Positions 1 through 23,646 of a DNA stretch of 24,000 nucleotides are shown one piece after another. Source of the stretch: an uncultured Clostridia bacterium (GTDB lineage: Bacteria; Bacillota; Clostridia; Oscillospirales; Oscillospiraceae); contig CANSAE010000001.1 in assembly GCA_947644595.1 (NCBI GenBank), positions 233,605 to 257,604 of the forward strand, read 5' to 3'. Both the position numbers and the translations under genes were made by a program. The notes beneath the pieces were generated by a model. That model was not told the origin of the DNA and did no database searches. It saw only the letters and a program-made list of their open reading frames with translations. How positions within the stretch are numbered: the stretch's first letter is position 1; each line of letters opens with the position of its first letter.

Positions 1-199
1 TAGAAAGCACCATCAATTCATAGTCCGTCACAAATCGTGTGCCGATCTCCATTCTGGAAACGCTGTCCCGCTCCATAATTACGCCTTCGATCTGCAACTT
101 TGCCGCAAGGCCTTCTTGTGTAAGCCTCCGTTTTAGACGCGCTTCCCGTATTCTGTCGCCGGAAACATTTTTCTTCCCGTGAAAGTCATATATTTTCAC
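1..199 (-). CDS. XRE/Cro-C1 family helix-turn-helix regulator, N-terminal part only (gene runs off the left edge)
   Basis: Not in the ORF track because it has no stop in the window. Read on the minus strand from GTG at 199 it gives MKIYDFHGKKNVSGDRIREARLKRRLTQEGLAAKLQIEGVIMERDSVSRMEIGTRFVTDYELMVLS. The RIRE-R-x4-LTQE-LA-KL ... SR-E-G pattern is typical of XRE HTH domains. AAAGGGG lies 11 nt upstream. The start codon is uncertain. Confidence 0.6.
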   Translation of the reverse strand, partial: MKIYDFHGKKNVSGDRIREARLKRRLTQEGLAAKLQIEGVIMERDSVSRMEIGTRFVTDYELMVLS

Positions 200-241
200 G
201 CATACCGCCGCCCCTTTCTGTGTTAAAAATCAGCACTATTC

Positions 242-270
242 TTTACTTTAACGCATTTTTGATGTATAAT
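242..270 (+). promoter_or_regulatory. Sigma-70-like promoter of the HIRAN-like cassette: -35 TTTACT (242..247), 17-nt spacer, -10 TATAAT (265..270)
   Basis: Both hexamers and the 17-nt spacing are conserved in the paralogous block at 15820..15848 (minus strand), while the spacer sequence differs. That pattern is expected for a functional promoter. Confidence 0.55.
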
Positions 271-338
271 CGTGTTAAAGGTCAGAATGCAAACGCGTTT
301 CGGCCCGTTGCCAAAACATGAAAGGAGCTATTCAAACA

Positions 339-980
339 ATGAAAAAGTCAACAATCATCCTATGGGGCGTTGCCGCGCTCTTCCTGCTGTGTTCCCTGCC
401 GTTCTTCGGAAAAGGTGAAATAGCGGAAGGCGTGTGCGGGATCGGAATTGCCGCGGTACTCTTCTTTGTGGGCCTGCGGAAAAAGAAAGCCGCGCCGAAG
501 TCCTCAATGCCAAATGTGCCGCCGATTACTAACGCGCCGCCCATCCCAAAACAACCGGAAGCCCAGCCCGCGGCGGCCCCCGCCGCTATTCCCAGCGCAC
601 CGCCTATCGTAACAGATAAGAAGCCCCCGCAATATACCCAAAACGGTTTTGATTTCCTGCGGGTAAAGGTTGCGGGCGTAACCTTTAAGAATGGGCGCAA
701 AAGCCGTCAAACAATCCTTCGCAAGATCCACTTCAAAGACGAACCCTTTGACAAGGGCAATATGGAATTGACATTGCAAAGGGAAGAATGGGAAGGCGCA
801 CCCGCCTTCGGCGTTTATGTCAACGGCGAACAAATAGGGAACATTCCCGCCGAATATGTTTCCTATGTGCAAGAAAACTTTTCCCGTTGTGAAGGGATCA
901 CAAACATAGAAGTATACGGCGGCGGTGAAGGCCGCAACTACGGCGCGGAAATTATTTTGCGTTTCCGGAAGGAAGGTTGA
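339..980 (+). CDS. Membrane-anchored (2-TM hairpin) protein with Pro-rich linker and C-terminal HIRAN-like domain
   Basis: Track ORF 318..980. I prefer ATG 339, because AAAGGAG (321..327) lies 11 nt upstream and the equivalent of ATG 318 is ACG in the paralogue. The N-terminus has two hydrophobic helices, KKSTIILWGVAALFLLCSLPFF and GVCGIGIAAVLFFVGL, followed by RKKK. The C-terminal stretch VAGVTFKNGRKSRQTILRKI...LTLQREEWEGAPAFGVYVNGEQIGNIPAEYVSYV...EVYGG resembles bacterial HIRAN domains (from memory). Confidence 0.75.
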   Translation: MKKSTIILWGVAALFLLCSLPFFGKGEIAEGVCGIGIAAVLFFVGLRKKKAAPKSSMPNVPPITNAPPIPKQPEAQPAAAPAAIPSAPPIVTDKKPPQYTQNGFDFLRVKVAGVTFKNGRKSRQTILRKIHFKDEPFDKGNMELTLQREEWEGAPAFGVYVNGEQIGNIPAEYVSYVQENFSRCEGITNIEVYGGGEGRNYGAEIILRFRKEG

Positions 981-1045
981 CAAAAGCCGCCGAATTTTGA
1001 AAAATAGGCGCGCGTCCAGCAATCAACCCCACACAAACGAAAAAA

Positions 1046-1081
1046 GCCCCCATGCCAGCCGATAACGGCCAGCATGGGGGC
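1046..1081. terminator. Bidirectional intrinsic terminator between the convergent HIRAN-like gene and the lysis operon
   Basis: GCCCCCATGC (1046..1055) pairs with GCATGGGGGC (1072..1081), and an inner GCCG/CGGC stem closes an ATAA loop. On the minus strand the hairpin is followed by TTTTT. On the plus strand it is followed by TTCTCT. Confidence 0.65.
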
Positions 1082-1112
1082 TTCTCTATGCGTTTAGTGA
1101 ATGGGGCGGGCG

Positions 1113-3355: not shown

Positions 3356-3895
3356 TCACCCCCTTTCCACCCGTTCCCATTGCCACATACCCGGCGTGTC
3401 AGGCGGGTATACGCAATTCGGCATATCGCCCGCCGCCTTGTAAACCGCGCCTTTGTAGCTGTAATATAGGCCGCTCTTCACGTCCACCACTACGCCCGCC
3501 GTTTCAGGGTATGGGATCGGATCATCTGCCGCCCCCGTGTGCGCCAGCTCCACAAGGCGGTAATATGCGAAGGTAGTTGCCACGGGAAAGGCTTCTGCAT
3601 TCGACGTGTGCGGGGCGACGATCTCATACAAGAGGCCGCCCGCCTTTATAATCTCGCCCACGGTGTTATAGGCGTGATTATCTATGAATTCCGGATAATC
3701 CACCACCGCCGCCGAAGCAAGGATCATTTCATCAGAAATGGCCCCCGTTCCTGCGGCGCGGTCTTGAACGATCTGCGCCTTGAAGGAAAGGGAAAGAAGG
3801 GCGGCGGTGCTGTCGCCCGCCGCCTTCACTTCCCGAAGCTCCTTCTTCAATTCTGCCGTGCCGTCCGGCTTGTCCGGCCTGTGTGTCACGCTCAT
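3356..3895 (-). CDS. Hypothetical protein, translationally coupled (ATGA overlap) to the DGR target gene
   Basis: 179-aa ORF with high GC3, like its neighbours. ATG 3895..3893 overlaps the target stop TGA 3894..3892. I recognise no family. Confidence 0.55.
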   Translation of the reverse strand: MSVTHRPDKPDGTAELKKELREVKAAGDSTAALLSLSFKAQIVQDRAAGTGAISDEMILASAAVVDYPEFIDNHAYNTVGEIIKAGGLLYEIVAPHTSNAEAFPVATTFAYYRLVELAHTGAADDPIPYPETAGVVVDVKSGLYYSYKGAVYKAAGDMPNCVYPPDTPGMWQWERVERG

Positions 3896-5628
3896 TCAAA
3901 ATTACCCCCAATCGAAGATACCCAGCATTCGGAAAGGGCTTCGCCGCGGCCCACGGTCACGCGGACGTTTAGGCCGTACTGCACCGCCGCGTTTTCCGTG
4001 TTCTCGAAGACGTGCGCCACGCCCTGCAAAACCGCGTTCGTGCAATCCTCCCACGCGGGGGAAGGATCGAAGGGATTGTTTGTCACTTCCACTTTGAACG
4101 TGCCGCCCGCGGGAATGTTCCGCGTAACAACCACATTCGCCCGCTTCGGCTGTTGCACCGCTTCCAGCGGCGCGGAAAGATAGATTACAAAGCCGTTGAT
4201 CGCCTTCGTGAAGGTCAGCGTGCGCACCGCCGAATTTCCCGCGCTGTCCGTGGCCGTGATCGTGATTGTGTGCGCCGCGTTCGTCAGCGACGTAAAATCA
4301 TTCCCGGCCAACGTCAGGTTTACAGACTGCCCAAGCGTTGGCGTGTGCGTCTTCAAGGTCTTTCCGTCCACCTTTTCAACTACGGTCACTATGTCGCCGT
4401 CCGGATCGTCCACGGTGTAGGCATAAGAAAAGCCCTCTCGCTTCACTCCAAGATCGGCGTTCTGCCCGGAAATTGTGGGCGGCTGATTGTGGATCACCGC
4501 GGACGGGCTGGAAGTGATATATGCGCTTTCGTTGCCCACGCTGTCCCGCGCCTTCACGCGGTATTTTACTGTGTTCCAGCTTGTCAGCACATTTTCTTCA
4601 AATGTGCGGGCGGCTGTCGCCGCCACCTGTGTATAACTTCCGTTGTTTGTGGCGCGCTCCAAAATATAGGTGATCGCGTCGCCCTCCGGATCGGTGGAAG
4701 CTCCCCACGATACCGCGATTTTCTGCCCGCTGTAACAATTCGCCGGAACGGAAATGCCGGACGGTGTAGACGGCGCGGCGTTCCATTGAAATTCATAATT
4801 CCCCTTTGCGTTGGTGCTGTCAGATACCAAGATTGAAGAATTAAGATTACAAAGCGGGCGCACGCCCCGGTAGCCGCTGTCCGCGTTGCTGCTGAGCAGC
4901 GCGCCCGAAGAATAGACATAGCGCACGTAGTACGAATTGCCGGAATACGGCGTGCGAAGCCAGTAATACCAAGCCGCCGAAGCATTCAAACTGCTGTTCG
5001 TGTACGTGCTGTTTTTCACGCATTCCGCTGTCGGGTATGCAAGGCGGCTTGTGTTGTCAGAAAACAAGGCCAGCTTCACGCCTTCGGCAATGTTGTTTTC
5101 GTTTGCAAGCCCTACTTCCGTAGTTGACGGAAGGTGCATTTTCGCCTTTACGGTTTCGTAGCTCCCGCCGTCCGTAACGGTGTTTTTTGCCACCGTTACC
5201 GTTGTTTCCAGCAGGGCGGCGACAAAGCGATCATCAAGCATTGCAAGGAAGCCCGCCTTGTCGGAATACGCATTGTGACTACTCCAAACATTGGCCGCCG
5301 TTGGCGGCGCGTCCGCGCTGTGCTTCGCGCTGTACCATGTCCCCGCCGTCGCTGTGCTGTTCAGCCATTGAAGAAGGTTTGCGTACAAATAGCGGTTATT
5401 GCCGTACTGCTTCCGGTTGCCGTCGCTGTTGCTTGCCTCGATCGCGTCAAACGCCAGCAAAAACGGGATTTTGTCAGTAATCAGCGTTACGGAATTTGCC
5501 GGATAGCCTGAATGATTTTTGTCCGCAACCTTGAAGACAACCTTTTGTCCTAAAAAGGATTGAAACGCCGCTTTCACGGGAACTTCGATCGTTGCGCCTA
5601 CGGCAAGCGAACTTAAAGCCTTTGACAT
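3892..5628 (-). CDS. DGR target protein: N-terminal lectin-fold-like variable domain (carries the VR), then FN3/Ig-like repeats and a C-terminal domain; probable tail fibre or receptor-binding protein
   Basis: Track ORF 3892..5667 starts at GTG. ATG 5628 has AAGGAGG (5644..5638) 9 nt upstream, inside the RT 3' end. The stretch WYYWLRTPYSGNSYYVRYVYSSGALLSSNADSGYRGVRPL is the ligand-binding end typical of C-type-lectin-fold DGR targets. An FN3-like stretch follows: SVPANCYSGQKIAVSWGASTDPEGDAITYILERATNNGSYTQV...VKYRVKARDSVGNES. Confidence 0.85.
   Translation of the reverse strand: MSKALSSLAVGATIEVPVKAAFQSFLGQKVVFKVADKNHSGYPANSVTLITDKIPFLLAFDAIEASNSDGNRKQYGNNRYLYANLLQWLNSTATAGTWYSAKHSADAPPTAANVWSSHNAYSDKAGFLAMLDDRFVAALLETTVTVAKNTVTDGGSYETVKAKMHLPSTTEVGLANENNIAEGVKLALFSDNTSRLAYPTAECVKNSTYTNSSLNASAAWYYWLRTPYSGNSYYVRYVYSSGALLSSNADSGYRGVRPLCNLNSSILVSDSTNAKGNYEFQWNAAPSTPSGISVPANCYSGQKIAVSWGASTDPEGDAITYILERATNNGSYTQVAATAARTFEENVLTSWNTVKYRVKARDSVGNESAYITSSPSAVIHNQPPTISGQNADLGVKREGFSYAYTVDDPDGDIVTVVEKVDGKTLKTHTPTLGQSVNLTLAGNDFTSLTNAAHTITITATDSAGNSAVRTLTFTKAINGFVIYLSAPLEAVQQPKRANVVVTRNIPAGGTFKVEVTNNPFDPSPAWEDCTNAVLQGVAHVFENTENAAVQYGLNVRVTVGRGEALSECWVSSIGGNFE
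4852..4952 (-). repeat. DGR variable region (VR)
   Basis: It aligns without gaps to 6887..6987 (offset 2035). There are 12 mismatches, and 11 are at positions where the TR coding strand has A. Confidence 0.9.
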
Positions 5629-5632
5629 TCCT

Positions 5633-6715
5633 TCATTCCTCCTTTTCTGAAATTGAACCGCCGTCACGCTCTTTCAGCGCGGCGGCGGCCTTGTTGAAGT
5701 ATTTGTTAAAATGCTGATCCATGTTCCGGATCAAGTGATAGCAATTCCCTTTTGCCGCGTGGCCGCGCCAACTCTGGTATGATTGCTTTACCGCGTCCGG
5801 CTCAATCTTCCCGGCCTCCATCAGCCCGCACAATTTCTTCACCTTGCGGCGGGCGTTGCTCTTTGACTTCCGGCGTACCTTGCGGATCACCCCGCCCGTT
5901 TCCGTCAAATATGTATGGAAGCCTAAAAAATCAATTCCGTTCTTCAACGGATATATAGCCGTTTTCTCATTCAGGGAAAGCCCCATTTCATTTACACGCC
6001 GTTCAATCTCCTTCCAGCAATAGCGCAAATATTCCCGGTCTTCATGGATCAAATAAAAATCGTCCATATAGCGGCCATAGAATTTCACGCCCAATTTTTC
6101 CTTGATGAAGTGATCCAGCGGCGAAAGATAAAGCAGGGCGAAAAGCTGTGAAGATTGATTGCCGATCGGAATTCCTACGTTGCCTTCCGTGCTGTCTATA
6201 ATCATGTCCAGCAACCACACGCATTCGGGATCGTCAACATATTTCCGCACAAGCTCCTTCAAAACGTCATGCCTGATCGAATAGAAGTATTTGCGAATGT
6301 CGCCTTTCAGCACCCAGCCGTCAACGCCCTTCTTCCGGTAAAACCGCCGCATGAACTCTTCCAGACGTTCAAGCCCGAAGTGTGTTCCTTTGCCTTCCTG
6401 CGACGCGTAATTATCCTTGATGAAGGACGGCAAAACCCGCGGCCCTAACACGTTGTCGCATAGGGCGTGTTGCACAACCTTGTCTTTGTAGCTGTTCGAC
6501 ATTACAATGCGTTCTTTCGGCTCATACACTTTGAACGTGTTATATGGTGAAAGGCGGTAAGTTTTCGCCCGTAACTGCGCGCTTAAAAGGTGCAAGGCTT
6601 CCAGCAAGTTTACTTCAAACTTCGCCGCCGCTCCCTTCCAGCGTTTGCCGCGCCGTGCCTTCCGGTATGCGCGGTATAGATTTTCAAAATTCCATACTTT
6701 TTCAAAGTCCGTCAT
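5633..6715 (-). CDS. DGR reverse transcriptase
   Basis: It has the RT motifs, including IPIGNQSSQLFALLYL (the [ILV]GxxxSQ motif diagnostic of DGR RTs) and YMDDF. It is about 360 aa with no intron maturase or endonuclease domains. It lies adjacent to the TR and an Avd-like gene. Confidence 0.93.
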   Translation of the reverse strand: MTDFEKVWNFENLYRAYRKARRGKRWKGAAAKFEVNLLEALHLLSAQLRAKTYRLSPYNTFKVYEPKERIVMSNSYKDKVVQHALCDNVLGPRVLPSFIKDNYASQEGKGTHFGLERLEEFMRRFYRKKGVDGWVLKGDIRKYFYSIRHDVLKELVRKYVDDPECVWLLDMIIDSTEGNVGIPIGNQSSQLFALLYLSPLDHFIKEKLGVKFYGRYMDDFYLIHEDREYLRYCWKEIERRVNEMGLSLNEKTAIYPLKNGIDFLGFHTYLTETGGVIRKVRRKSKSNARRKVKKLCGLMEAGKIEPDAVKQSYQSWRGHAAKGNCYHLIRNMDQHFNKYFNKAAAALKERDGGSISEKEE

Positions 6716-6886
6716 TTATAAAAAAGCTCCTTGCCGTGTGTAACCTCGGCCAAGCCCTGCGGCTATGCTCCGGTATCGGCAATCTTGTATTTATCCCTGC
6801 TGTGGATAGCAGGGAAGGGAAACACTTTCCTTTGATGGTGGTATTGTGTTTTCGGCCTGCGGCCTACTCTGTCGAATGATCCACCG

Positions 6887-6987
6887 AAGCGGGCGCACGC
6901 CCCTGTTGCCGTTGTACGCGTTGTTGTTGTTCAGCGCGCCCGAAGAATTGACATTGCGCACGTTGTACGAATTGCCGGAATTCGGCG
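6887..6987 (-). repeat. DGR template repeat (TR)
   Basis: This noncoding copy of the VR lies between avd and the RT. Its VR-equivalent frame reads PNSGNSYNVRNVNSSGALNNNNAYNGNRGVRPL, with 11 AAY Asn codons. It has 25 coding-strand adenines. Confidence 0.9.
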
Positions 6988-7041
6988 GCGGGGCGTGCAA
7001 AAGGAAAAGAAGAACCTACAAAGTGTTCCCCAAACGGTTTT

Positions 7042-7446
7042 CTAAGCTCTCGTTTTGTCCCGCTTCTTCCACGCGGCCACCATGTACTTTACATCAAGAA
7101 CCAGTTTCGACCAATAATCGCAACTTTTCATTGAAATAAAGCCCATTTCGTGCGAAAGCTCAATAAAAAATAGAAGCTCCTTGCAATAGGTCATTGCCCG
7201 CGCTTGAAGCCTCTGCCGTTGTCTGAATTCGTCCGCTTGCCGCAAATCTAATTCGTTCGCTTCAAGCGTCATTTCGTATATGTCAACCGCTTTATCCTGA
7301 ATGCGGTTCACCAGCGTAAAGCGGTATTTCTTCGGGTAACGCTCCGTGCTGTTGGTGATCGTGAAGGTGTGCTTTACAAGGTCTTTCGCCTTCACAATCA
7401 CGTTGAATTCGGAAGGCTCCTTGCGTTCCCGTTCCTGCCCCTGCAT
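7042..7446 (-). CDS. avd: Accessory variability determinant (Avd), four-helix-bundle protein
   Basis: 134 aa, helical and basic. The stretch KAKDLVKHTFTITNSTERYPKKYRFTLVNRIQDKAVDIYEMTLEAN is typical of Avd / 23S-rRNA-IVS-like four-helix-bundle proteins. It sits directly 5' of the TR. AAAGGA lies upstream of ATG 7446. Confidence 0.85.
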   Translation of the reverse strand: MQGQERERKEPSEFNVIVKAKDLVKHTFTITNSTERYPKKYRFTLVNRIQDKAVDIYEMTLEANELDLRQADEFRQRQRLQARAMTYCKELLFFIELSHEMGFISMKSCDYWSKLVLDVKYMVAAWKKRDKTRA

Positions 7447-7674: not shown

Positions 7675-8565
7675 TCAACATTCGATCCGGCGCAACGCCG
7701 CATTCCATACGCCCGTTGATACCACGCCGTCCAAATCATCAAAGAGGATCAAGAACGGGTTTGCCGTTATGTCATTGAAAAGCACGGCTTCGATCAACTC
7801 AATGCGCGCGGTGTTGCTCTGTATCATGTTCACTAAATGGCCTACGGTGTCTTCGTCAAGCACGTTCTTCACCGAAGCGAACCATGCGTTGAAGTCGTTT
7901 TCCGCTTCCAGCTTAAACGCGTTCATGTAGGCTTGCAGGGCGTTATACTGCTGATCCCCCAAAAGCTCCAAACTTTCCATATAGGACACAAGATCGTTGA
8001 ACTCTTCAAGGCTCTGTGCCTTGTAGTCCGTGAACCACGCTTGAAGCTGTGCATTAAACGCGGTGGTGTCTATCTGATCCACCACGCCCGCCACCACTCC
8101 ACAAAGGGAAGGATCAAGGCGGCGATCCGTTATGACAGCCTGCGATATGGCCGTAACGCCTGCGCCCGTTGTAATGTCCGCAAGGCACAATTCGTATGCG
8201 TCCGCGTCCCTCTGCAACGCGGGCGGCGTGGGCGACGCGGAAGGCGTGGAAGACTTCACCACAACGGAAATTAACCTTTCCGTCAAGTCCCAGCGCACAA
8301 CAATTCGATCAATCCGGTTCAAAACGCCATCCGCAACCGGAAGCGTAAGGGAAAGATCGCCCGTGTTGTAATAGAAATAGCCGTTGATCCATGCCTTGCC
8401 TGCCTTCACGGTCACAACCATTCCCGAACCCGCCACAACTTGAAGATTGTTTGACGGGACGGGGAACACGCCGTTGCCGATAAAAGAAGCGAAGTATTCG
8501 GCCCATTCCTCAGCACGGTATACGCGATCATGGGAAACGGAATTGAAAAAACTTGATTTTTCCAT
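7675..8565 (-). CDS. Tail fibre / baseplate-associated structural protein (family not identified)
   Basis: 296-aa ORF with AAAGGGGTG upstream. It sits downstream of the Dit and Gp37-like genes. The N-terminal stretch FFNSVSHDRVYRAEEWAEYFASFIGNGVF...VTVKAGKAWINGYFY recurs in fibre-like proteins of Firmicute phages (from memory). Confidence 0.55.
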   Translation of the reverse strand: MEKSSFFNSVSHDRVYRAEEWAEYFASFIGNGVFPVPSNNLQVVAGSGMVVTVKAGKAWINGYFYYNTGDLSLTLPVADGVLNRIDRIVVRWDLTERLISVVVKSSTPSASPTPPALQRDADAYELCLADITTGAGVTAISQAVITDRRLDPSLCGVVAGVVDQIDTTAFNAQLQAWFTDYKAQSLEEFNDLVSYMESLELLGDQQYNALQAYMNAFKLEAENDFNAWFASVKNVLDEDTVGHLVNMIQSNTARIELIEAVLFNDITANPFLILFDDLDGVVSTGVWNAALRRIEC

Positions 8566-8577
8566 GTTTTCACCCCT

Positions 8578-9693
8578 TTACTTTGCAATTTGCCGTATCT
8601 GTGTAAGCAGGGCGGGCAAGCTCTCACCAAAGGTAATGTCGATTTCCTCAATGTTCTGTTGGTATGTTTCGGACACTTCGGTAATACGAACGTTGATCTT
8701 GATACCCCACCGTTTATTTACGCACGTTACCCTGTCGCCTAAGTCGTAGTCTTCGCGGTATTTCAGGTTTGCGTGCGTGTTGATCTTGCTGGAAAAACTC
8801 AACGTTTCGGCGTATTGTTCCAGCTCCGACGCGCCCCGCTCCAAGAGGCAAGCCAAATATTCCGCGTCCGTGCGCGTAATCTCCGTTTGCGTGCTGTCCG
8901 TGTAAACCTTCGTAATATCCGTTGCGTTTACAAAGATTTCTTCACGGTCAAGGCCGGACGCGCCGCCGCCTACTTCGGCCACAACCCGCGGTTCTACCTC
9001 TTCGCCGCCCACGTATGCGGTTGTTTTCAGGTTTTCAACGCTGTTTGTGTATTCCTGCTCTGTGATATTGTCGAATTCCTGCGAAAAGATACAAGGCGGG
9101 TTTTCTGTCTGATCCGCGGTCAGGTTGCGGCCAGCGTAGACGCTGAAATAGTGCTTTCCCGCGCGCACATCCGAACGTGAACGGAAGCCCAGCTTTGCCG
9201 CCTTTGCCGCCGTTTCCACCGCCAGAAGCGCATTTATAAAGGCTTCGGACGTATAATTGATTTTCCCGCTTCCCGTGTCCACGTCCAGCGGATCAAGAAG
9301 GATATTCGGAATTTTGCGGGCGACCACCCGCGGGGAAATGATATTTTCGCGGACAATCCGGTATAGAATATCCTGTGTCCCGCTCGTTGCTGTGATCTGA
9401 TCGCGCACAATGCGCTTTCCGATCCATTGCGTGATAAATTTGCCCTGCACTTCGATTTCTTCAAGGCCCTGCGAATTCTTGCTTATGTTCACATAGCGGA
9501 TTTCCGCGGCCTCCGTGTCCCCACGCTTCAAAATCAGGCGGTTTTTAATCAGAAGGGCAACGTGCCTTTCTGTGAACGGCACAAGCAATTTGAATTCCCC
9601 TGCCGCCCAATACCGCCGCGTCCAGATAAGGGAAGAAATTTCGTCAATCACCCCTTGAAGGATCATGTTTCGGTCATATATGTAAAGCTCCAC
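8578..9693 (-). CDS. Siphovirus Gp37-like tail protein (ReqiPepy6 Gp37 family, Tal-position gene)
   Basis: The N-terminal stretch MELYIYDRNMILQGVIDEISSLIWTRRYWAAGEFKLLVP is the recognisable start of the Sipho_Gp37 family. It lies directly after Dit. The start is GTG, 3 nt after the Dit stop. Confidence 0.7.
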   Translation of the reverse strand: MELYIYDRNMILQGVIDEISSLIWTRRYWAAGEFKLLVPFTERHVALLIKNRLILKRGDTEAAEIRYVNISKNSQGLEEIEVQGKFITQWIGKRIVRDQITATSGTQDILYRIVRENIISPRVVARKIPNILLDPLDVDTGSGKINYTSEAFINALLAVETAAKAAKLGFRSRSDVRAGKHYFSVYAGRNLTADQTENPPCIFSQEFDNITEQEYTNSVENLKTTAYVGGEEVEPRVVAEVGGGASGLDREEIFVNATDITKVYTDSTQTEITRTDAEYLACLLERGASELEQYAETLSFSSKINTHANLKYREDYDLGDRVTCVNKRWGIKINVRITEVSETYQQNIEEIDITFGESLPALLTQIRQIAK

Positions 9694-9696
9694 GCC

Positions 9697-10569
9697 TCAC
9701 ACCCCCAAATATAGATCATCGTGGTATATGGACACTTCCAGATTTTCAAGGTTTCCTTCTGCGGAATATCTGAAAAGGTTATCCCCAACAGAAAGTTGCA
9801 AATATGAACTGTCCACGTCCAGATAGCGGAACGCGTCCGTTACAATGCCGCCGTGCTTCAAGGTTACTTCTTTTTCCCCGTAGCCCGTGGAAACGGTCAG
9901 CGTGTCGCCTGCTTCCATCGTGTAATTTAGCTTGATGAATTCTTGCGTGTCCACGTTCAAAAGGGCGGGGTTTGTCACCATGCCCAGCGCGCGGAACTCC
10001 ACGCGTATTCCGGCCTGCACGTCCCCGTCGTTATACACGTTCACGATCAAGGAAGGTTGCCTATACCCAATTTCCCACCCCGGCACGATCTCAACGGGGA
10101 ATTCCAGCCCGCCGATCCACGTTGCTATATCGTCCCGCGTCTTGCTCTCCTTCCTCCAAAACGGATTAAGGCAAAGAAGCTGTATTGTGAAGTCCTGAAA
10201 AATGGCCTTGCGCGTGAACACGGGCGCGTTGTCAACCTTGCAATCAATCACCCGCACAAAATCGCCGTACTGATATGTCAGCGTGGCGGCGTACTGCGGG
10301 TTTAGAACGCGGTTCAGCCTGCGGCGGTATTCCCGCATTTGATCCTTGTTCCGCTCCTTGATACTGCCCACAATCTCAATTTCGCGGCTTTCTATGCGGT
10401 TGCCTAAATAGGTGTCGCCGTCCTGCCCCATGCTGTTTATGCTGTAAATTGCGTTGCGAACGTCAGAAAGGCCGCTAACGCTGTTCGTGTGGTAAACGGA
10501 AGCGTGGGAAAAGGCTACGCTTTCCCCACGCTCATTCGTATATGTCAGTATTTCGATCTTCCTTGCCAT
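9697..10569 (-). CDS. Distal tail protein (Dit, phage tail family protein)
   Basis: Its position is immediately after the tape measure; the ATG overlaps the TMP TAA as TAATG. At 290 aa it is the usual Dit size. The N-terminal pattern is ILTYTNERGESVAFS...SGLSDVRN. Confidence 0.75.
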   Translation of the reverse strand: MARKIEILTYTNERGESVAFSHASVYHTNSVSGLSDVRNAIYSINSMGQDGDTYLGNRIESREIEIVGSIKERNKDQMREYRRRLNRVLNPQYAATLTYQYGDFVRVIDCKVDNAPVFTRKAIFQDFTIQLLCLNPFWRKESKTRDDIATWIGGLEFPVEIVPGWEIGYRQPSLIVNVYNDGDVQAGIRVEFRALGMVTNPALLNVDTQEFIKLNYTMEAGDTLTVSTGYGEKEVTLKHGGIVTDAFRYLDVDSSYLQLSVGDNLFRYSAEGNLENLEVSIYHDDLYLGV

Positions 10570-13500
10570 TACGCCATTACCTCCCGCGCGATCATGCGGA
10601 ATTGCTTTGCGGCCTCCCGCTGTTGCTGTGCATAGCTCGTTTCATTGGCATAGATGTTTTGCACCACCTGAACGCCGCCGCCCCGCTCATTGCGGTTCAC
10701 CCTGCCGGAAGGCTGTTTCACTTCCGGCACGCTGGAAGCCGTGGCCGTGCGGATCGTCTTTTCAACGTCCCGCATTTCGCGGGCAAATCCTTGCCCTAAA
10801 CCTTCGGCCATGTATGCGCCAATTCCTGCAAATACCTTCGACGGGGAATTGATCTGCATTTCTGCTTCCACGGCGGCAACAATACGCCTCATCATAGAAC
10901 GCACATTGCTTTCCAGCCAGCCGGACATATTTTGAAAGCCCTGCCAAATGCCGCGCACCATGTTTTCCCCCGCCGCCGTAAACTGCGACGTGAAGCCGTT
11001 TAATGTTGTGACAATGGATTGAACGATCTGCGACATTTTGCCCGTGATTTCCGGTATACCCTGCACCATGCCGGACGCTATGGCCTTGTCCATGTCCACG
11101 CCTTCCGTTGTTAGCTTGCTATGCTGTGCGGTAAAGGCGGTAATAATGGATTGAACCACCTGCGCGGCCTTGCCCGTGATCTGCGGTATACCCTGCACCA
11201 TGCCAGACGCTATGGCCTTGTCCATGTTCACGCCCTCGGTTGTCAGCTTTCCATGCTGTGCGGTGAAGGCGGTAATGATGGATTGAACGATCTGTGCGGC
11301 CTTGCCTGTGATCTGCGGAATGCCGTTCACCATGCCGGACGCTATGGCCTTGTCCATTTCTACGCCTTCCGTTGTCAGCCTTCCGTGCTGTGCGGTGAAG
11401 GCCGTAATAACGGATTGTATTACTTCGGCCATCTTGCCCGTTATACTGCCCAGCCCGTTTATTATGCCTTCGGAAATGCGGGCGGCCATATCTACGCCTA
11501 TTTGCCCGAATTGTCCAGCCTGCGCCGTCATTCCGGCTACTACCTGTTGCACAATGGCCGTTACCGCGCCGTCCAGCGCGGCCACGTTGGATATAATGCC
11601 GTCGTTCACCGAACGCACCGCTTCGGCGGCGGTCATTTCCCCCGCGCCACCCATTGCGGCGGTCATTTCAGAAGAAACGCCGCCCATGCTGTCACCAAAG
11701 CCCACGCCTACGCCTTCGCCCATATACGAACCGATTTCCGCAAATACGGTGGAAGGGGAGTGAATGCCAAAAAACCCCTTTATGTTCGATACAAGGTTAG
11801 AAGCCCAGCCGGACACCTGTTGCCACAACCAGCCCGCCGCCCCGCTGATACCTTCCCACAACCCGCGAAGCAGATTGCCGCCCGCGTTGATAAGCTCCCC
11901 GCGTAGGTTAGAAAATGCCTGCACAATGCCCGTTACAATCTGCGGCACGGCCTTCACGATTTCAACAATGATTGTCGGAAGATTTTTTATCAGCGAAACG
12001 AACAGTTGCACGCCTGCTTGTACGATCTGCGGTATACTTCCAACCAAAGCCGTTACAAGAGAAGTGATTATTTGCGGTATAGCCGCGACAACGGTTGTAA
12101 TGATTTCCGGCAATGCCTGAATCAGCGACACAAATAATTCAATGCCCGCTTGAATAATCTGCGGTATGCTGTTTGTTAGGGCTGTCACCAGCGAAGAAAC
12201 AATTTGCGGTATTGCGGTAACAACGGTTGTAATGATTTCCGGCAATGCCTGAATCAGCGACACAAACAATTCAATGCCCGCTTGAATGATCTGCGGTATA
12301 CTGTTTGTTAAGGCGGTCAGCAGTCCGGCCAAAATCTGCGGGATTGCCCCGACAATCGTTGCAATGATTTCCGGCAATGCCTGAATCAGCGACACAAATA
12401 ATTCAATGCCTGCTTGAATAATCTGCGGTATACTGCCAGTTAAGGCAGTTATAAGCCCCTCTATAATCTGCGGGATCGCCGCAACGATTGTTTCAATAAT
12501 CTGCGGCAAGGCTTGTACAAGAGAAGTGAAAAGGGAAATACCCGCTTGAATGATCTGCGGGATTGCCGAAAGAAGCCCGTCAATCAACTCCGTTATCAGA
12601 GAAGGAAGCGCGGCCACCAAAACGGGAACCGCGTTTATAATCCCTTGCGCAAGCCCTGTTATAAGCTGTAATGCCGCGTCGATCAACATAGGGATATTTT
12701 CAACCAGCGTTTGCACCATTGCAACCACGACTTCAACGATCTTCGGTAACAACTGCGGCAACGCTTCCCCGATCCCGTTTGCCAGCGCAAGAACAATCTG
12801 CACCGCCCCTTCCAGAAGAAGGGGAAGAACGCTTATAAGCCCGTCGATCAAAGAAAGGATAATTTGCGTTGCGGCTTCTGCAATCGCGGGCAAGGCCCCA
12901 ATCAGCCCTTGCACAATCGCGTTTATCATTTCTACCGCCGCTGTGCTGATTGTCGGAAGGCTTGTTACAAGCCCGTCAACCAGCCCTAACACAATTTCGG
13001 TTGCAAACTCTGTAATCTGTGGAAGGATCGTCGAAAAGTCTTCCACCAATCCGGCAAGGGCTGTCCCGAATGTGTCAGCCATTTTAGAAATATCGCCGTT
13101 TGCGGAAGTCGCGCCCGCCGAAAGCTCATTGACAAAATCTGAAAGGGCGGGTAATGCCTCTTGCCCTATGGGAAGGACAAAGTTTGTTTTCAGGACGCGC
13201 CCCAAACCGGACATTGCCGATCCAAAATCATCATACTTTACCGCATTTATCGCGGAAAGCGCGTCTGTTGTGGTGCTAATTTCGCCGTTCAGGTTTGTTA
13301 AAGCCTTCATGCCCTCAACGCCTAAATCTTCCCACATTGTCCCGAACAAGGCAACGCCCGCCGCGTTCTGTGCTAAAGGATCGTCCATAGCAAAAAGGGC
13401 GGCTGTCACGTCTTCAAACGCTTTCGCCGCCTGATCCCCGCCAGCGGCAAAGGCCGCCGCGGTTTCTTCTGCATTTACTCCAATGTCTGCGAACGCCTGC

Positions 13501-15227: not shown

Positions 15228-15268
15228 CGCCGCTCCCTCCTTCTTACAGTAAAATGGGCATAGAAAAA

Positions 15269-15301
15269 CCCCCGCACAACTGTTTCCAGTTAATGCGGGG
15301 G
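15269..15301 (-). terminator. Intrinsic terminator after the Zn-ribbon cassette gene, immediately upstream of the tape measure RBS
   Basis: On the minus strand CCCCCGCA pairs with TGCGGGGG, with additional inner pairing (AACTG/CAGTT), and is followed by TTTTTCT. Confidence 0.6.
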
Positions 15302-15318
15302 CTTCTGCCCTTCGGTTG

Positions 15319-15744
15319 TTATTTAATTCGTGAACATTTTTTGCATTCTGTATAGCCTTGCATTAGGGCGTATTCCAAAGTTACATATTTAGGATTTTTC
15401 ATGCCGGAACATTTTTCATCGCGGTGGTAACGCTTGCCGCCCTCTTCAATGTATACTTTATATGTTCCTGCAAAAGAAGTTTGTGCGGCTGTACTGTGCG
15501 GTAGACTGTGTGGAGTTTCGTGCTTTTCGGCTTGTGACGTAAAGTCTTTTTGGGGGCCAGAATATGAAATTCCGTTTTTTATCCCCGTCTTTTTTCTAAA
15601 CCCGAAAACTCCCAGCACCACGGCAAGCGCAAGGCCGCAAACGCCGGAAGCAATGTCGCCTTCTGCGAAAAGGCTTATTGCCGCAATCAGGCAACACGCC
15701 GAACATACCAGCAACGTAATTTTGATTAGCTTTGATCTGTCCAT
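15319..15744 (-). CDS. Membrane-anchored (2-TM hairpin) protein with C-terminal Zn-ribbon-like H/C-C-C motif; paralogue of the 339..980 N-terminus
   Basis: Track ORF 15319..15870. I prefer ATG 15744, with GAAAGGAG (15763..15756) 11 nt upstream. GDIASGVCGLALAVVLGVFGFRKK aligns with GEIAEGVCGIGIAAVLFFVGLRKK of the other gene. The C-terminal stretch GGKRYHRDEKCSGMKNPKYVTLEYALMQGYTECKKC resembles the small Ada-N-terminal-like Zn module seen on nucleases and DNA-binding proteins (from memory, unverified). Confidence 0.7.
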   Translation of the reverse strand: MDRSKLIKITLLVCSACCLIAAISLFAEGDIASGVCGLALAVVLGVFGFRKKTGIKNGISYSGPQKDFTSQAEKHETPHSLPHSTAAQTSFAGTYKVYIEEGGKRYHRDEKCSGMKNPKYVTLEYALMQGYTECKKCSRIK

Positions 15745-15819
15745 AGTTTGAATAGCTCCTTTCGTGTTTTGTCTTTGGCAACAAGGCCGGAATGCGCCTG
15801 AATTCCAGCCTTTAACACA

Positions 15820-15848
15820 ATTATAGCCGAAGCGCGTGTTAAAGTAAA
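15820..15848 (-). promoter_or_regulatory. Sigma-70-like promoter of the Zn-ribbon cassette: -35 TTTACT (15848..15843), 17-nt spacer, -10 TATAAT (15825..15820)
   Basis: The hexamers and spacing are identical to those at 242..270, but the spacer sequence differs. Confidence 0.55.
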
Positions 15849-15891
15849 GAACTATACTGATTTTTAACACAAAAGATTTTGCGCCTGCTAT

Positions 15892-16460
15892 TCATAGCCC
15901 CATGAACACATCGTCAATATCTGCTTCTTTCTGTTCCTGCTTGAACCGATCCGGATTGAATTCCTTGTGAATGCGAAACAGCGTCAGGATTTTATACGGT
16001 GTCATTTTCCAAACGTCGGCTTCCGGCCAGCGTAGAAGCGTAACCCCGATATAAAGCAGGCGGGCAAGGTCAATTAAGCCTTGCCCGCCGCCGCGTTTTT
16101 TTCCTCTTCGCCGTCTTCGTCTTCTTCGTCTTCCACGGCGGGCGGCTCTGCCGTGCCGCTGTTGCCCATAGCGAAGGCGCGGAAAATCGCCGTGCGCACT
16201 TCGTCGAAGTTGCCCGTGTGGATCATGTGGCCTACCTGTTTTTCGGTCAACGGATCTTCATCGTCCCCCGCGCCCTCATTCAGAAGCAGGGTAAGAAGCC
16301 ACCGAAGATTTTTAATGCTTTCCTTGCCGGAAAGCACTTCGGCCAGCGTGTCAAAGCCGCCGAAGCGGTCTTGCATTTCGTCAAGGACATTCAGGGAAAA
16401 AAGCAAATGCCGTTCTTTGTCAAGGACGATCGGCAAACGCCCGTCTTTAATCGCGCTCAT
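15892..16460 (-). CDS. Tail assembly chaperone GT (about 189 aa, made by a -1 programmed frameshift at 16101..16095)
   Basis: The -1 frame is open from the slippery heptamer to TGA 15894..15892. It reads KKRGGGQGLIDLARLLYIGVTLLRWPEADVWKMTPYKILTLFRIHKEFNPDRFKQEQKEADIDDVFMGL. This frame has no plausible start codon with an RBS of its own. Confidence 0.75.
16060..16101 (-). promoter_or_regulatory. -1 programmed ribosomal frameshift signal: slippery A_AAA_AAC plus a downstream stem-loop
   Basis: The zero frame reads GAG GAA AAA AAC. The heptamer is at 16101..16095, followed by the 6-nt spacer GCGGCG. A perfect 10-bp stem then forms between GCGGGCAAGG (16088..16079) and CCTTGCCCGC (16069..16060). 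Its 9-nt loop contains the G stop codon. Confidence 0.8.
16074..16460 (-). CDS. Tail assembly chaperone G (short product)
   Basis: It lies between the major tail protein and the tape measure. It is 128 aa with an acidic C-terminal tail (VEDEEDEDGEEEK). A slippery site lies 6 codons before its stop. Confidence 0.8.
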   Translation of the reverse strand: MSAIKDGRLPIVLDKERHLLFSLNVLDEMQDRFGGFDTLAEVLSGKESIKNLRWLLTLLLNEGAGDDEDPLTEKQVGHMIHTGNFDEVRTAIFRAFAMGNSGTAEPPAVEDEEDEDGEEEKNAAAGKA

Positions 16461-16515: not shown

Positions 16516-17076
16516 TTAGGCCGCGTCTTCTTTCGGCTCCCGAACCGCGCTGAACCAGCTTGCCGCCGCCGCTTCCGTGGGAACGGCCACGTGTTCAGCC
16601 TTCCACCGCCCATCCGGGCGTTTGATAAACTGCCCCGTGATCTCCGGTGTGGTGAATTCTATACTGTCGCCCTTCGTGTTATAGCTTTCAGAAGGAATAG
16701 CGAATTTCACCTTGTAAAGCCAAATGTATTTATACATTCCATTGGCCTTCTTTGCCCGGAAGCCGATCGCCATATAGGGCGGTTCGTCCTCTTCGCCCGC
16801 GTATACGACGCCGTCTTCGTCCTGCGTCTGGCCCAAAATGGCCGCAAGGTCAGCGGGCATAAGGTCGTTTACGTTCAACGTCAATTCGCCGGAAACAAAT
16901 TCCTTTACCACTTCGTCCGCGCCATCGTCGGCGTAAAGGATCGCTTCGGCTACCTCTACGGACATTTCCGCGCTAATGGCCTTCGCCATGCGCACGGGCG
17001 TTCCGTATGTTTCCTTGCCGCTTTCGTCAACCGTGATCGGCGCACGGTAAAGATCACGCAAACCAATAGTTGCCAT
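16516..17076 (-). CDS. Major tail protein (phi13-like family)
   Basis: MATIGLRDLYRAPI...YMAIGFRAKKANGMYKYIWLYKVKF is typical of this family. ATG 17076 has GGAGG 9 nt upstream. The track start at 17112 is probably too early. Confidence 0.85.
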   Translation of the reverse strand: MATIGLRDLYRAPITVDESGKETYGTPVRMAKAISAEMSVEVAEAILYADDGADEVVKEFVSGELTLNVNDLMPADLAAILGQTQDEDGVVYAGEEDEPPYMAIGFRAKKANGMYKYIWLYKVKFAIPSESYNTKGDSIEFTTPEITGQFIKRPDGRWKAEHVAVPTEAAAASWFSAVREPKEDAA

Positions 17077-17081
17077 AGTTT

Positions 17082-17426
17082 TTATACCTCCGTTTTTTCG
17101 TAGTATCTGCATTCAATGGGGACGTGATAAAAGCCCGTGTCCGTTTCGTAGGCTTCCGGATCAATCACGATCCCATAGAAGCCCGCGGCCTTCAACGCCC
17201 GCTTCGTCCGGCGCAACAAGGCTATATAATCCCGCTTTGAATAAAGGTCAACGCGGTATGTGTATTCCGTCCCCTGCATTTCGTCTTCTGCCGCGTCCCT
17301 ATCTTCCGAAGAAACAAGCTGATACGTGAAGAATGTGCCAGCCTTCCCGCGGTAAAGCAGGCGCGCCACATTCGGGCAAAGGGCGGCAAGCGTGGATTTT
17401 ACCAGCGCGTCCACGGTGTCAATCAT
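17082..17426 (-). CDS. Tail completion / tail terminator-like protein (DUF3168-like)
   Basis: It is called by size and by its position between the gp10-like gene and the major tail gene. ATG 17426 overlaps the upstream stop as ATGA and is preceded by GGAGGAGGAG. Confidence 0.6.
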   Translation of the reverse strand: MIDTVDALVKSTLAALCPNVARLLYRGKAGTFFTYQLVSSEDRDAAEDEMQGTEYTYRVDLYSKRDYIALLRRTKRALKAAGFYGIVIDPEAYETDTGFYHVPIECRYYEKTEV

Positions 17427-23536: not shown

Positions 23537-23646
23537 AAAAAACGCCCCCTTTCTTCCAGCCTCTACCACACCCCCCACCGCGTACACCCGTTATGCGCGC
23601 GCCTGCGGAGTTTTTTTATCCTCCCGCCCTCGGTGTTTCCCCCTCC

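What the first reader, a model, noticed from the sequence alone, without database searches (positions are those of the whole stretch)
220..1081. Two paralogous self-contained cassettes share promoter, 5' UTR, 2-TM anchor and terminator but carry different C-terminal domains
Plus strand 220..~480 and minus strand 15870..~15600 are clearly homologous. The shared blocks are GTGTTAAAAATCAG, TCTTTACTTTAAC (-35), TATAAT, GTGTTAAAGG, GTTGCCAAA and GAAAGGAGCTATTCAAAC, followed by the ATG. The encoded anchors also align: GEIAEGVCGIGIAAVLFFVGLRKK against GDIASGVCGLALAVVLGVFGFRKK. After the anchor the proteins are unrelated. One has a Pro-rich linker and a HIRAN-like domain (339..980). The other has a Zn-ribbon-like YH..C...C..C module (15319..15744). 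The 3' ends are similar too: AAGCCCCC...GGGGG hairpins followed by (C/T)TT(C/T)TCTATGC. The predicted topology is short basic N-terminus inside, hairpin, then RKK inside, which would place both C-terminal modules at the cytoplasmic face of the membrane. That suggests a modular, lysogen-expressed moron family, perhaps acting on incoming DNA ends as a superinfection-exclusion-like function. I know of no described system with this architecture. The function is speculative.
Basis: partly seen in the sequence, partly recalled or inferred. Interest (0 to 1): 0.7.

Follow-up and report, generated by a model that had tools for sequence, protein, structure and literature searches.

The report
Twin repressor-controlled prophage accessory-gene cassettes
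Two small add-on genes in a gut-Clostridia prophage share a portable promoter/operator unit, apparently governed by a neighbouring 82-residue repressor, and the same two-helix membrane anchor; one carries a HIRAN-like module and the other a zinc module, and related phages fuse these into one protein, so this is a clean variant of the known phage "moron" whose function is still untested.

Summary
Window 216-351 (+) and 15732-15874 (-) form the longest inverted repeat in the window. The two encoded N-terminal 2-TM hairpins are homologous (BLASTP E 5e-10).

The shared blocks are not one unit.
- The 18-nt ribosome-binding block is generic to this phage lineage and precedes at least 12 unrelated genes.
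- The promoter, its two flanking direct-repeat boxes and a 5' hairpin form a portable regulatory module. I found 85 instances in viral contigs. About 80 lie divergent from an ~82-aa XRE regulator whose recognition helix co-varies with the box sequence.
- Behind this promoter sits variable cargo: anchor+HIRAN-like, anchor+Zn, fused Zn+HIRAN-like, lipoproteins, small multi-TM proteins and a DEDDh exonuclease.

Cassette B is a ~660-nt insertion between the tail-chaperone and tape-measure genes. It is absent from related phage nd12, so it is a textbook moron. In distant phages, HIRAN-like genes lie directly downstream of CI/LexA-type repressors, which points to lysogenic expression. A pneumococcal "transmembrane HIRAN protein associated with lysogeny" (thaL) has already been named in print.

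Verdict: the modular moron family is supported, and the regulation is newly inferred. Superinfection exclusion at DNA ends remains speculation. This is a new variant of a known kind, of moderate interest.

The parts
2..199 (-). 5' part of the XRE82 regulator gene (GTG start at 199; cut off by the window edge). It is divergent from cassette A.
   Evidence: Pfam HTH_31 2.5e-5. Full-length 80-82-aa homologues sit next to about 80 of 85 copies of this promoter. PADLOC 'Control_protein' 4.5e-7.
220..233 (+). Box 1 of cassette A (GTGTTAAAAATCAG), upstream of -35. Inferred operator.
242..270 (+). Sigma-70-type promoter of A: TTTACT, 17 nt, TATAAT.
272..285 (+). Box 2 of cassette A (GTGTTAAAGGTCAG), over the predicted transcription start. 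Inferred operator.
280..305 (+). 5'-proximal leader hairpin. Its 5' arm is the right half of box 2.
320..337 (+). Lineage-generic RBS block GAAAGGAGCTATTCAAAC.
339..980 (+). Gene A, 213 aa. It comprises a 2-TM hairpin (aa 1-49, nt 339-485), a Pro/Ala-rich disordered linker (aa 50-~100) and a HIRAN-like domain (aa ~103-213, nt ~645-977).
1042..1085 (.). 20-bp-stem hairpin terminator shared by gene A (+) and the convergent lysis operon (-). The T-run is stronger on the minus strand.
15857..15870 (-). Box 1 of cassette B (GTGTTAAAAATCAG).
15820..15848 (-). Promoter of B: TTTACT, 17 nt, TATAAT.
15805..15818 (-). Box 2 of cassette B (GTGTTAAAGGCTGG).
15785..15810 (-). Leader hairpin of B (GGCTGGAAT...ATTCCGGCC), with changes on both arms relative to A.
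15746..15763 (-). RBS block GAAAGGAGCTATTCAAAC.
15319..15744 (-). Gene B, 141 aa. It comprises a homologous 2-TM hairpin (aa 1-52), a linker and a C-terminal Zn module (aa ~93-141; Y-H...C...C-x2-C invariant in the family).
15258..15302 (-). Intrinsic terminator of B (GCCCCCGCA...TGCGGGGGT plus TTTTTCTATGC), lying inside the late operon.
15228..15891 (-). The whole of cassette B as an insertion between the stop codon of the tail-chaperone frameshift product (15892-15894) and the tape-measure start (15227).
   Evidence: Phage nd12 has no insert here; its stop codon overlaps the TMP ATG.

Best explanation
A and B are two copies of a portable, repressor-controlled accessory-gene unit (a regulated 'moron') in a temperate, DGR-carrying siphovirus of gut Oscillospirales.

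The unit's home is the divergent promoter next to the small XRE gene (XRE82), at the junction between the lysis genes and the lysogeny/integration genes. That is cassette A. A second copy of promoter + gene + terminator has been inserted between the tail-chaperone and tape-measure genes. That is cassette B.

Shown directly:
- homology of the promoter/operator/leader and of the 2-TM anchor;
- the insertion nature of B;
- the modular domain combinations;
- the HIRAN-like fold;
- the tight link between this promoter and XRE82.

Inferred:
- XRE82 binds the two ~14-bp direct-repeat boxes, which sit 52 bp apart. One lies upstream of -35 and one over the transcription start. In this way it throttles a strong sigma-70-type promoter at both loci, as a C-protein or Aca does, so both genes are co-expressed at a limited level from the prophage.
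- The transcript starts with a stabilising hairpin and uses the lineage's standard RBS.
- Both products are N-in/C-in hairpin-anchored proteins that hold a cytoplasmic module on a flexible linker at the inner face of the membrane.
- Because the Zn and HIRAN-like modules are fused in one chain in relatives, A and B work together. They possibly pair through their homologous hairpins.

Most speculative step: the pair binds nucleic acid, with the HIRAN-like module binding DNA 3' ends, where foreign DNA enters the cell, and so protects the lysogen (exclusion-type function).
For: Homology and significance.

Moron anatomy:
- Promoter-like sites.
- Terminators.
- B is absent from phage nd12, where the chaperone stop overlaps the TMP start.
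- The same slot holds the soluble Zn gene P0127 and an anchor+HIRAN gene in L040.

Regulator link:
- 85 promoter copies carry box 1 exactly 52 nt upstream of box 2.
- About 80 of them have a divergent XRE82 gene. The exceptions are the B-position copies and one 495-nt fragment.
- All type-1 regulators keep the helix (M/I)ERDS.SR.E while the rest of the protein diverges.
- Phages with boxes CCAAAGATGG/CCAAAGGTGA (53 bp apart) have a regulator with ITQKQISRIE instead.
- In the window both loci carry the same box type.
- In the window and in the complete nd12 genome, the boxes occur only at these cargo promoters plus one coding hit.
- XRE82 resembles R-M 'Control_protein'.

Leader hairpin: present in 26 of 33 distinct leaders, with changes on both arms in window B and in L204.

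Variable cargo behind the same promoter.

Domain shuffling, including fused forms.

HIRAN-like assignment.

Topology.

Lysogeny context:
- A is the only opposite-strand gene. It lies beside XRE82, other small HTH genes and an IS30-like integrase at the prophage end.
- In 10 distant viral loci, the HIRAN-like gene lies 7-145 nt downstream of, and on the same strand as, a 103-230-aa XRE repressor. Two of these repressors carry Peptidase_S24.
- Literature precedent: thaL.
Against: - There are no expression data. A box over the transcription start implies repression, so the level in lysogens is unknown.
- I could not find a convincing promoter for XRE82 itself (and manual inspection).
- The boxes are direct repeats, not the palindromes usual for XRE dimers.
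- Operator/helix co-variation rests on only two specificity types.
- The HIRAN assignment is weak by sequence. The query itself gets no Pfam hit and no PDB sequence hit, and the TM-score is only 0.45. I did not check the canonical 3'-OH-binding residues.
- The Zn module has no family hit.
- Anchor-less Zn+HIRAN and Zn-only versions show membrane tethering is dispensable.
- PADLOC gives no hit for A or B.
- A and B are seen together on a single contig only in this window.
- The terminator similarity is weak.
Confidence: 0.55

Rival explanations
1. Anti-defence or early 'burst' genes under Aca-like control. With no XRE82 present, the strong promoter fires as soon as the phage DNA enters a new cell, and is then shut off. 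The HIRAN-like and Zn proteins would protect phage DNA ends or block a host sensor during the phage's own infection, rather than protecting the lysogen.
For: - A small HTH regulator sits beside variable small cargo, as at acr-aca loci.
- A box lies over the transcription start.
- XRE82 is similar to R-M control proteins and to capH.
- Soluble versions exist.
Against: - Much of the cargo behind this promoter is lipoprotein or multi-TM protein, which is typical of exclusion functions and not of anti-defence proteins.
- Distant HIRAN-like genes sit in cI operons.
- The gene faces away from the early genes, and B lies in the late operon.
Confidence: 0.15
2. Modulators of the prophage's own induction or lysis timing. 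They would sense intracellular single-stranded or broken DNA, in the way SzaL/SpaL of pneumococcal prophages link activation to competence and DprA.
For: - thaL, szaL and spaL occupy the same kind of slot in lysogeny modules, and SzaL alters prophage activation (PMC12637031).
- The HIRAN fold is associated with 3' ends of DNA (HLTF; established knowledge).
- A lies next to the lysis and lysogeny modules.
Against: - The proteins have no effector or signalling domain.
- The cargo at this slot is interchangeable with unrelated proteins, and nd12 lacks both modules, so no core regulatory role is needed.
- thaL itself was not tested in that paper.
Confidence: 0.15
3. Membrane tether for the phage's own DNA replication or segregation, like phi29 p16.7 (TM segment + linker + DNA-binding domain).
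For: The architecture is similar: an N-terminal membrane anchor, a linker and a putative nucleic-acid-binding C-terminal module.
Against: - Presence/absence polymorphism among close relatives.
- Anchor-less versions exist.
- The genes are not in the early/replication operon.
- They have their own promoter and terminator.
Confidence: 0.05
4. The similarity is only a recent duplication. The conserved blocks reflect recency and not function, and the 5' UTR or the boxes have no regulatory role.
For: - Two copies in one genome can arise by a single recombination event.
- The anchor DNA similarity is marginal.
Against: - Conservation is patterned. The hexamers, boxes and RBS are kept while the spacer and the coding DNA have diverged.
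- The same pattern holds over 43 distinct promoter variants with unrelated cargo.
- A second box type co-varies with the regulator.
Confidence: 0.05

Closest known systems
Phage morons (HK97/HK022 concept; review PMC3594210)
   Same: An independent promoter-gene-terminator unit inserted between two genes that are adjacent in related phages. B lies between the tail chaperone and the tape measure. Cargo is variable and non-essential.
   Different: The unit brings, or copies, an operator-bearing promoter that answers to a dedicated regulator encoded elsewhere in the same phage. The same promoter is used at two loci for two halves of what is one protein in relatives.
[quoted passage not shown]
   Same: A membrane anchor plus a HIRAN-type domain, encoded in or next to the lysogeny module of a Firmicute prophage. 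Function is untested.
   Different: Sequence relationship was not established: tblastn of A against GenBank phages gave no match. Here the gene is divergent from a small XRE regulator, and it has a partner Zn-module gene.
Prophage superinfection-exclusion proteins: Ltp lipoprotein of TP-J34 (PMC3952083), lactococcal Sie2009, P22 SieA inner-membrane protein (PMC10883804)
   Same: Small prophage-encoded membrane or lipoproteins, encoded beside the repressor/integrase or as morons. Lipoproteins and small multi-TM proteins occupy the very same promoter slot in relatives.
   Different: No sequence similarity. The known Sie proteins act at or outside the membrane on the injection machinery. A and B carry cytoplasmic nucleic-acid-type modules, and soluble versions exist.
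Controller (C) proteins of restriction-modification systems and Aca repressors of anti-CRISPR loci
   Same: An ~80-aa HTH protein beside the gene it controls. Two operator sites at a strong promoter. Best PADLOC hit is 'Control_protein'.
   Different: The operators here are direct repeats flanking the promoter, not adjacent palindromes. The regulator is divergently transcribed, and it also controls a distant second locus. Binding is inferred and has not been shown.
HIRAN domain (Pfam PF08797; HLTF structure 4XZG)
   Same: Best and only credible structural match (prob 0.94). Some family members hit PF08797.
   Different: A divergent subfamily with an invariant basic insert, GVTFKNGRxxRQxIL. The query gets no Pfam hit, the TM-score is only 0.45, and conservation of the 3'-end pocket was not checked.
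Phage phi29 p16.7
   Same: A membrane anchor, a spacer and a DNA-binding C-terminal domain at the inner face of the membrane.
   Different: p16.7 is an early replication-organising protein. A and B are dispensable, separately transcribed accessory genes.

Membership tests
Moron | Own promoter upstream of the gene | tested here: met
   TTTACT-17-TATAAT at both cassettes, 10/12 to consensus. The hexamers are conserved over 43 promoter variants. This is a consensus match, not a measured activity.
Moron | Own terminator downstream | tested here: met
   G/C-rich hairpins followed by T-runs at 1042-1085 and 15258-15302. A's terminator is shared with the convergent lysis operon.
Moron | Inserted between genes that are adjacent in related phages | tested here: met
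   For B: nd12 has the chaperone stop overlapping the TMP ATG, while the window has a ~660-nt insert. For A: the slot is constant but the cargo differs.
Moron | Expressed from the prophage independently of the late genes | not testable with these tools
   Needs lysogen RNA-seq or 5'-end mapping.
HIRAN domain (PF08797) | Significant match to the Pfam model | tested here: not met
   No hit for A at E<=1. Only 5 of 79 relatives hit weakly, best 1.6e-4.
HIRAN domain (PF08797) | HIRAN fold | tested here: inconclusive
HIRAN domain (PF08797) | Pocket residues that bind a free DNA 3'-OH, and actual DNA-end binding | not tested
   No residue-level structural alignment was available. Needs a binding assay.
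Ada-type zinc-binding domain (PF02805) | Match to the family model or to solved Ada structures | tested here: not met
   No Pfam hit. No PDB sequence hit with the family profile.
Ada-type zinc-binding domain (PF02805) | Four conserved metal ligands in an Ada-like arrangement | tested here: inconclusive
   H17, C22, C44 and C47 are invariant in 8 diverse modules.
Superinfection-exclusion protein | Membrane-located, prophage-encoded small protein | tested here: met
   Two hydrophobic segments, with a positive-inside charge pattern. Prophage context. This is prediction only.
Superinfection-exclusion protein | Blocks infection or DNA entry by other phages | not testable with these tools
   Needs phage challenge assays. 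No PADLOC family matches A or B.
C-protein / Aca-type local autoregulator (for XRE82) | Small stand-alone HTH protein next to the controlled gene | tested here: met
   80-82 aa, HTH_3/HTH_31. Adjacent in about 80 of 85 cases. PADLOC Control_protein 4.5e-7.
C-protein / Aca-type local autoregulator (for XRE82) | Specific operators in the controlled promoter | tested here: inconclusive
   Repeated boxes flank the promoter, are restricted to cargo promoters, and change together with the recognition helix. Only two types were seen. Binding was not shown.
ThaL (PMC12637031) | TM segment(s) + HIRAN domain, encoded in a prophage lysogeny module | tested here: met
   Architecture and context.
ThaL (PMC12637031) | Sequence homology to the pneumococcal protein | not tested
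tblastn of A against 50,697 GenBank phage records found nothing.

The most novel reading that the evidence does not exclude
The Zn module and the HIRAN-like module form a previously unrecognised two-part nucleic-acid-end trap, either fused or split onto two homologous membrane hairpins that pair. It would sit on the cytoplasmic face of the membrane and capture the leading 3' end of DNA entering the cell, whether superinfecting phage DNA or transforming single-stranded DNA. That would give the prophage exclusion and/or protection from curing by transformation. The whole trap would be dosed by a dedicated mini-repressor that controls two distant loci through portable operator-promoters.
Probability: 0.15. 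Interest if true: 0.75.

Novelty: new variant of a known kind. Interest (0 to 1): 0.45.

Why it matters
- It gives a concrete, testable handle on a large uncharacterised phage protein family. The HIRAN-like 'GVTFKNGR..RQ' domain has 469 clusters at 50% identity and is not in Pfam. It sits again and again in lysogeny operons of gut Clostridia prophages, alongside the only published mention (thaL), which is also untested.
- It defines a compact regulator-operator-promoter module (XRE82 plus two boxes) that marks an accessory-gene hotspot. That module could be used as a search key for new lysogen-expressed cargo in gut phages. The cargo already seen includes lipoproteins, small membrane proteins and a DEDDh-BRCT exonuclease.
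- The split-versus-fused Zn/HIRAN pair on a common anchor is a natural 'Rosetta-stone' case that predicts a physical partnership.

Tried and rejected
- Riboswitch or known cis-RNA in the shared 5' UTR: no Rfam hit at gathering score over the whole window. At E<=10 on 200-360 there is only a chance T-box fragment on the wrong strand. Folding z-scores are weak. Only a simple 5' hairpin is conserved.
- The idea that the 18-nt RBS block belongs to the cassette: rejected. It occurs 59 times in 35 viral loci, before unrelated genes and inside operons.
- XRE82 as the phage's master repressor: not supported. Its boxes are absent from the early and lysogeny promoters of L026, L002, L008 and the complete nd12 genome.
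- The leader palindrome as the operator: rejected. A and B in the same phage differ on both arms.
- Known defence families: PADLOC gives none for A, B or fused Zn+HIRAN. NCBIfam gives nothing meaningful.
- PDB by sequence with three profiles: no hits.
- tblastn of A, or of its domain, against GenBank phages: no match.
- The full-length AF2 model with a shallow alignment was poor (pLDDT 62). The domain-only model with 79 sequences was good.
- I could not locate a convincing promoter for XRE82, nor a third operator type in L060/L063.
- The profile search for further architectures of the Zn module returned only close relatives.
Full report
**Context**

The window is the late half of a temperate siphovirus-type prophage. 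On the minus strand it reads:
- small and large terminase (23183-23587, 21530-23182), portal, capsid, and major tail protein (16516-17112);
- tail chaperone (16074-16460), a 1552-aa tape-measure protein (10569-15227), Dit and other tail proteins;
- a diversity-generating retroelement, and then holin and endolysin genes.

Only one real gene, A (339-980), lies on the plus strand. To its left, again on the minus strand, the window cuts through a small XRE-family gene (2-199).

The nearest deposited genome is 'Phage nd12' (OR777946, 75% identity over half the window). Relatives of A are prophage genes of gut Oscillospirales and Lachnospiraceae.

**Check of the observation**

The two upstream regions are the longest inverted repeats in the window (216-305/15785-15874 and 312-351/15732-15771). 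They align with a score of 106, against 15.5 +/- 2.4 for shuffles.

The conservation is patterned. The -35 (TTTACT) and -10 (TATAAT) hexamers, two flanking boxes (GTGTTAAA..), GTTGCCA and the RBS block are kept, while the 17-nt spacer has drifted.

The N-terminal 2-TM hairpins are homologous (43% over 44 residues, E 5e-10), and nothing aligns after the RKK motif.

The 3' ends are both strong hairpins followed by GGGGG(C/T)TT(C/T)TCTATGC. This similarity is only modestly above chance (7 of 2000 shuffles). When other loci are compared, part of it looks like flank specific to each insertion site.

**The shared blocks are three different things**

*RBS block.* The 18-nt block GAAAGGAGCTATTCAAAC is not part of the cassette. 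It occurs 59 times in 35 viral contigs, in front of at least a dozen unrelated genes, usually inside operons. The same upstream gene end is followed, directly after this block, by six different downstream genes. So it marks mosaic junctions of this phage lineage.

*Promoter module.* The promoter with its boxes is a portable regulatory module. A scan for the -10/box 2 junction, filtered for a box 1 exactly 52 nt upstream, gave 85 instances and 43 distinct sequences.
- About 80 of the 85 lie divergent from an 80-82-aa XRE gene. phmmer found 68. The other 12 are the same gene picked in the wrong frame by my script. I checked this directly for L045/L048. For the rest it follows from the overlapping-frame peptide.
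- The exceptions are precisely the copies sitting in the tail-gene slot (window B, L023, L028, L040) and one 495-nt fragment.
- All these regulators keep the helix (M/I)ERDS.SR.E(I/R)GTR although the rest of the protein diverges.
- A second group of phages has a different repeated box (CCAAAGATGG ... CCAAAGGTGA, 53 bp apart) at the same positions around a different promoter. Their regulator has ITQKQISRIE in that helix.
- In the window both loci carry type-1 boxes. In the window and in the complete nd12 genome the boxes occur nowhere else of note.

I therefore infer that XRE82 is a local regulator of this promoter, acting in trans on the second copy. It is not the phage's master repressor. It scores best against the 'control proteins' of restriction-modification systems. 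One box covers the predicted transcription start, so repression or dosage limitation is the likely effect. That step is inference.

*Leader hairpin.* The right half of box 2 forms the 5' arm of a leader hairpin in 26 of 33 distinct leaders. Window B and the P0127 cassette change both arms together, while A and B must see the same regulator. So the hairpin is conserved as a structure, most simply a 5' mRNA stabiliser. No Rfam family matches.

**The two slots**

Cassette B (15228-15891) is an insertion. In nd12 the chaperone stop codon overlaps the tape-measure start. The same slot holds a soluble Zn-only gene in other phages (P0127), an anchor+Zn gene with type-2 boxes (L001), and an anchor+HIRAN gene in L040.

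Slot A is constant, but its cargo varies widely:
- anchor+HIRAN-like, fused Zn+HIRAN-like (211 aa), and anchor+Zn+HIRAN-like (P0108);
- one TM helix + coiled coil + HIRAN-like;
- a 101-aa multi-TM protein (nd12 and at least 14 loci);
- ~230-aa lipoproteins;
- a zinc-ribbon protein that carries the same hairpin at its C-terminus;
- a DEDDh exonuclease with a BRCT domain, and others.

This is the behaviour of an accessory-gene hotspot.

**The proteins**

Both have two hydrophobic segments. The charge distribution is +2 at the N-terminus, -1 or -2 in the loop, and +5 or +4 after the second helix. That predicts N-in/C-in. The anchor-less relatives have no signal peptide.

A's linker is disordered and very variable in length.

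A's C-terminal domain belongs to a family of 469 clusters at 50% identity. The query has no Pfam hit, but 5 of 79 relatives touch PF08797. With a 79-sequence alignment it models at pLDDT 90.5. Its only credible PDB match is the HLTF HIRAN domain (prob 0.94, TM 0.45). 'HIRAN-like' is fair, but membership of PF08797 is not shown, and I did not check the 3'-end pocket.

B's C-terminal module has invariant Y-H, C and C-x2-C and no family hit.

The two modules occur fused in one chain in many relatives. That argues they act together. Here they are split onto homologous hairpins and placed under the same operator-promoter.

**Evidence on when they are expressed**

I have no direct data. The context points to lysogeny.
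- A is the only opposite-strand gene. It sits between the lysis genes and a block made of XRE82, further small HTH genes and an IS30-like DDE integrase that forms the prophage end.
- In ten distant viral loci, the HIRAN-like gene lies 7-145 nt downstream of, and on the same strand as, a 103-230-aa XRE repressor. Two of these repressors have a Peptidase_S24 domain, and a small divergent Cro-like gene lies beyond. I computed no chance expectation for this adjacency.
- That is the position of rexAB-type and sie-type genes (established knowledge; PMC3952083, PMC10883804, PMC11436027).
[quoted passage not shown] It was not tested (PMC12637031).

**Mechanism and its limits**

My best reading is a dosage-limited, prophage-expressed pair of membrane-tethered cytoplasmic modules that bind nucleic acid and protect the lysogen.

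The first part (a regulated moron pair with modular products) I hold at about 0.8. The functional part (exclusion acting on DNA ends) I hold at about 0.3.

Against the functional part:
- soluble versions exist;
- there are no PADLOC hits;
- the HIRAN evidence is weak;
- a box over the transcription start could mean the genes are mostly off.

Rivals are an Aca-like early-burst anti-defence role, a role in sensing DNA for induction (as for SzaL), a p16.7-like replication tether, and meaningless recent duplication. The last is excluded by the pattern of conservation over 43 promoter variants.

**Novelty**

Morons, lysogeny-module membrane proteins and small HTH controllers are all known, and TM-HIRAN prophage proteins have been noticed in print.

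What is new here:
- the dedicated regulator with a portable operator-promoter used at two distant loci;
- the split/fused Zn and HIRAN-like pair on a shared anchor;
- the definition of an uncharacterised domain family and of a cargo hotspot.

I rate it a new variant of a known kind, with interest 0.45.

Noticed in passing
window 3892-7446 (-); TR 6887-6987, VR 4852-4952: Diversity-generating retroelement: Avd (7042-7446), reverse transcriptase (5633-6715) and a target gene (3892-5667) whose 3' end holds the variable repeat. 11 of the 12 TR/VR mismatches fall at template adenines on the coding strand.
   Followed up: partly
L036-L039 (about 7690-8814); L026 2749-3786; L086 25320-26357: The prophage ends at an IS30-family DDE protein (HTH_38 + rve, 345 aa). 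It is flanked by four different host contexts in four samples, so this transposase-type enzyme seems to serve as the integrase with low site specificity.
   Followed up: partly
window 320-337 and 15746-15763; 35 IMG/VR loci (L001-L035): The exact 18-mer GAAAGGAGCTATTCAAAC precedes at least 12 unrelated genes. One conserved upstream gene end is followed, right after the block, by six different genes. It looks like a lineage-wide translation-initiation block that doubles as a recombination junction.
   Followed up: partly
window 15258-15302 (-): A strong intrinsic terminator lies inside the late operon, just upstream of the tape-measure gene. Late transcription must read through it, so some antitermination or a second late promoter is implied.
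   Followed up: no
window 10997-12600: The tape-measure gene contains arrays of 132-nt (44-codon) tandem repeats, with 3-6 copies at 65-87% identity.
   Followed up: no
L093, L095, L114, L125, L135, L137, L186, L190 (cargo genes behind the same promoter): ~230-aa predicted lipoproteins (LAGC/LSAC lipobox) with no Pfam or PADLOC hit occupy slot A in related phages. They are candidates for Ltp-like exclusion proteins.
   Followed up: partly
L181 and L201 (cargo gene, 327 aa): A DEDDh (RNase_T) exonuclease fused to a BRCT domain sits behind the same XRE82-controlled promoter. It hits PADLOC DEDDh (1e-39) and the candidate defence family PDC-S48 (2e-26).
   Followed up: partly
L098, L153, L183, L188 (127-aa proteins): The same TM hairpin motif (..QGNISSFVCGLVIGGAL..) occurs at the C-terminus of proteins with an N-terminal CxxC...CxxC zinc ribbon. 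So the anchor is itself a mobile module, used at either end of a protein.
   Followed up: no
P0077, P0100, L041 (linker of A-type proteins): The linker expands through repeats of a ~25-residue Pro/Ala/Lys-rich unit (PKADTTAHVAPAADPRPxKAEAAAP). Proteins range from 179 to 262 aa with identical domains.
   Followed up: no
L086 24383-24420 (nd12) and 26390-26420: Two further strong sigma-70-like promoters lie in the lysogeny region. One has the palindrome ATACGC-N7-GCGTAT in its spacer. This is probably the true immunity switch, and it is distinct from the XRE82 boxes.
   Followed up: no
window 249-256 and 15834-15841: Just after the -35 hexamer lies TTTAAC(G/A)C, the reverse complement of the box core GTGTTAAA. 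This gives a third, inverted half-site between the two boxes. Its meaning for regulator binding is unknown.
   Followed up: no
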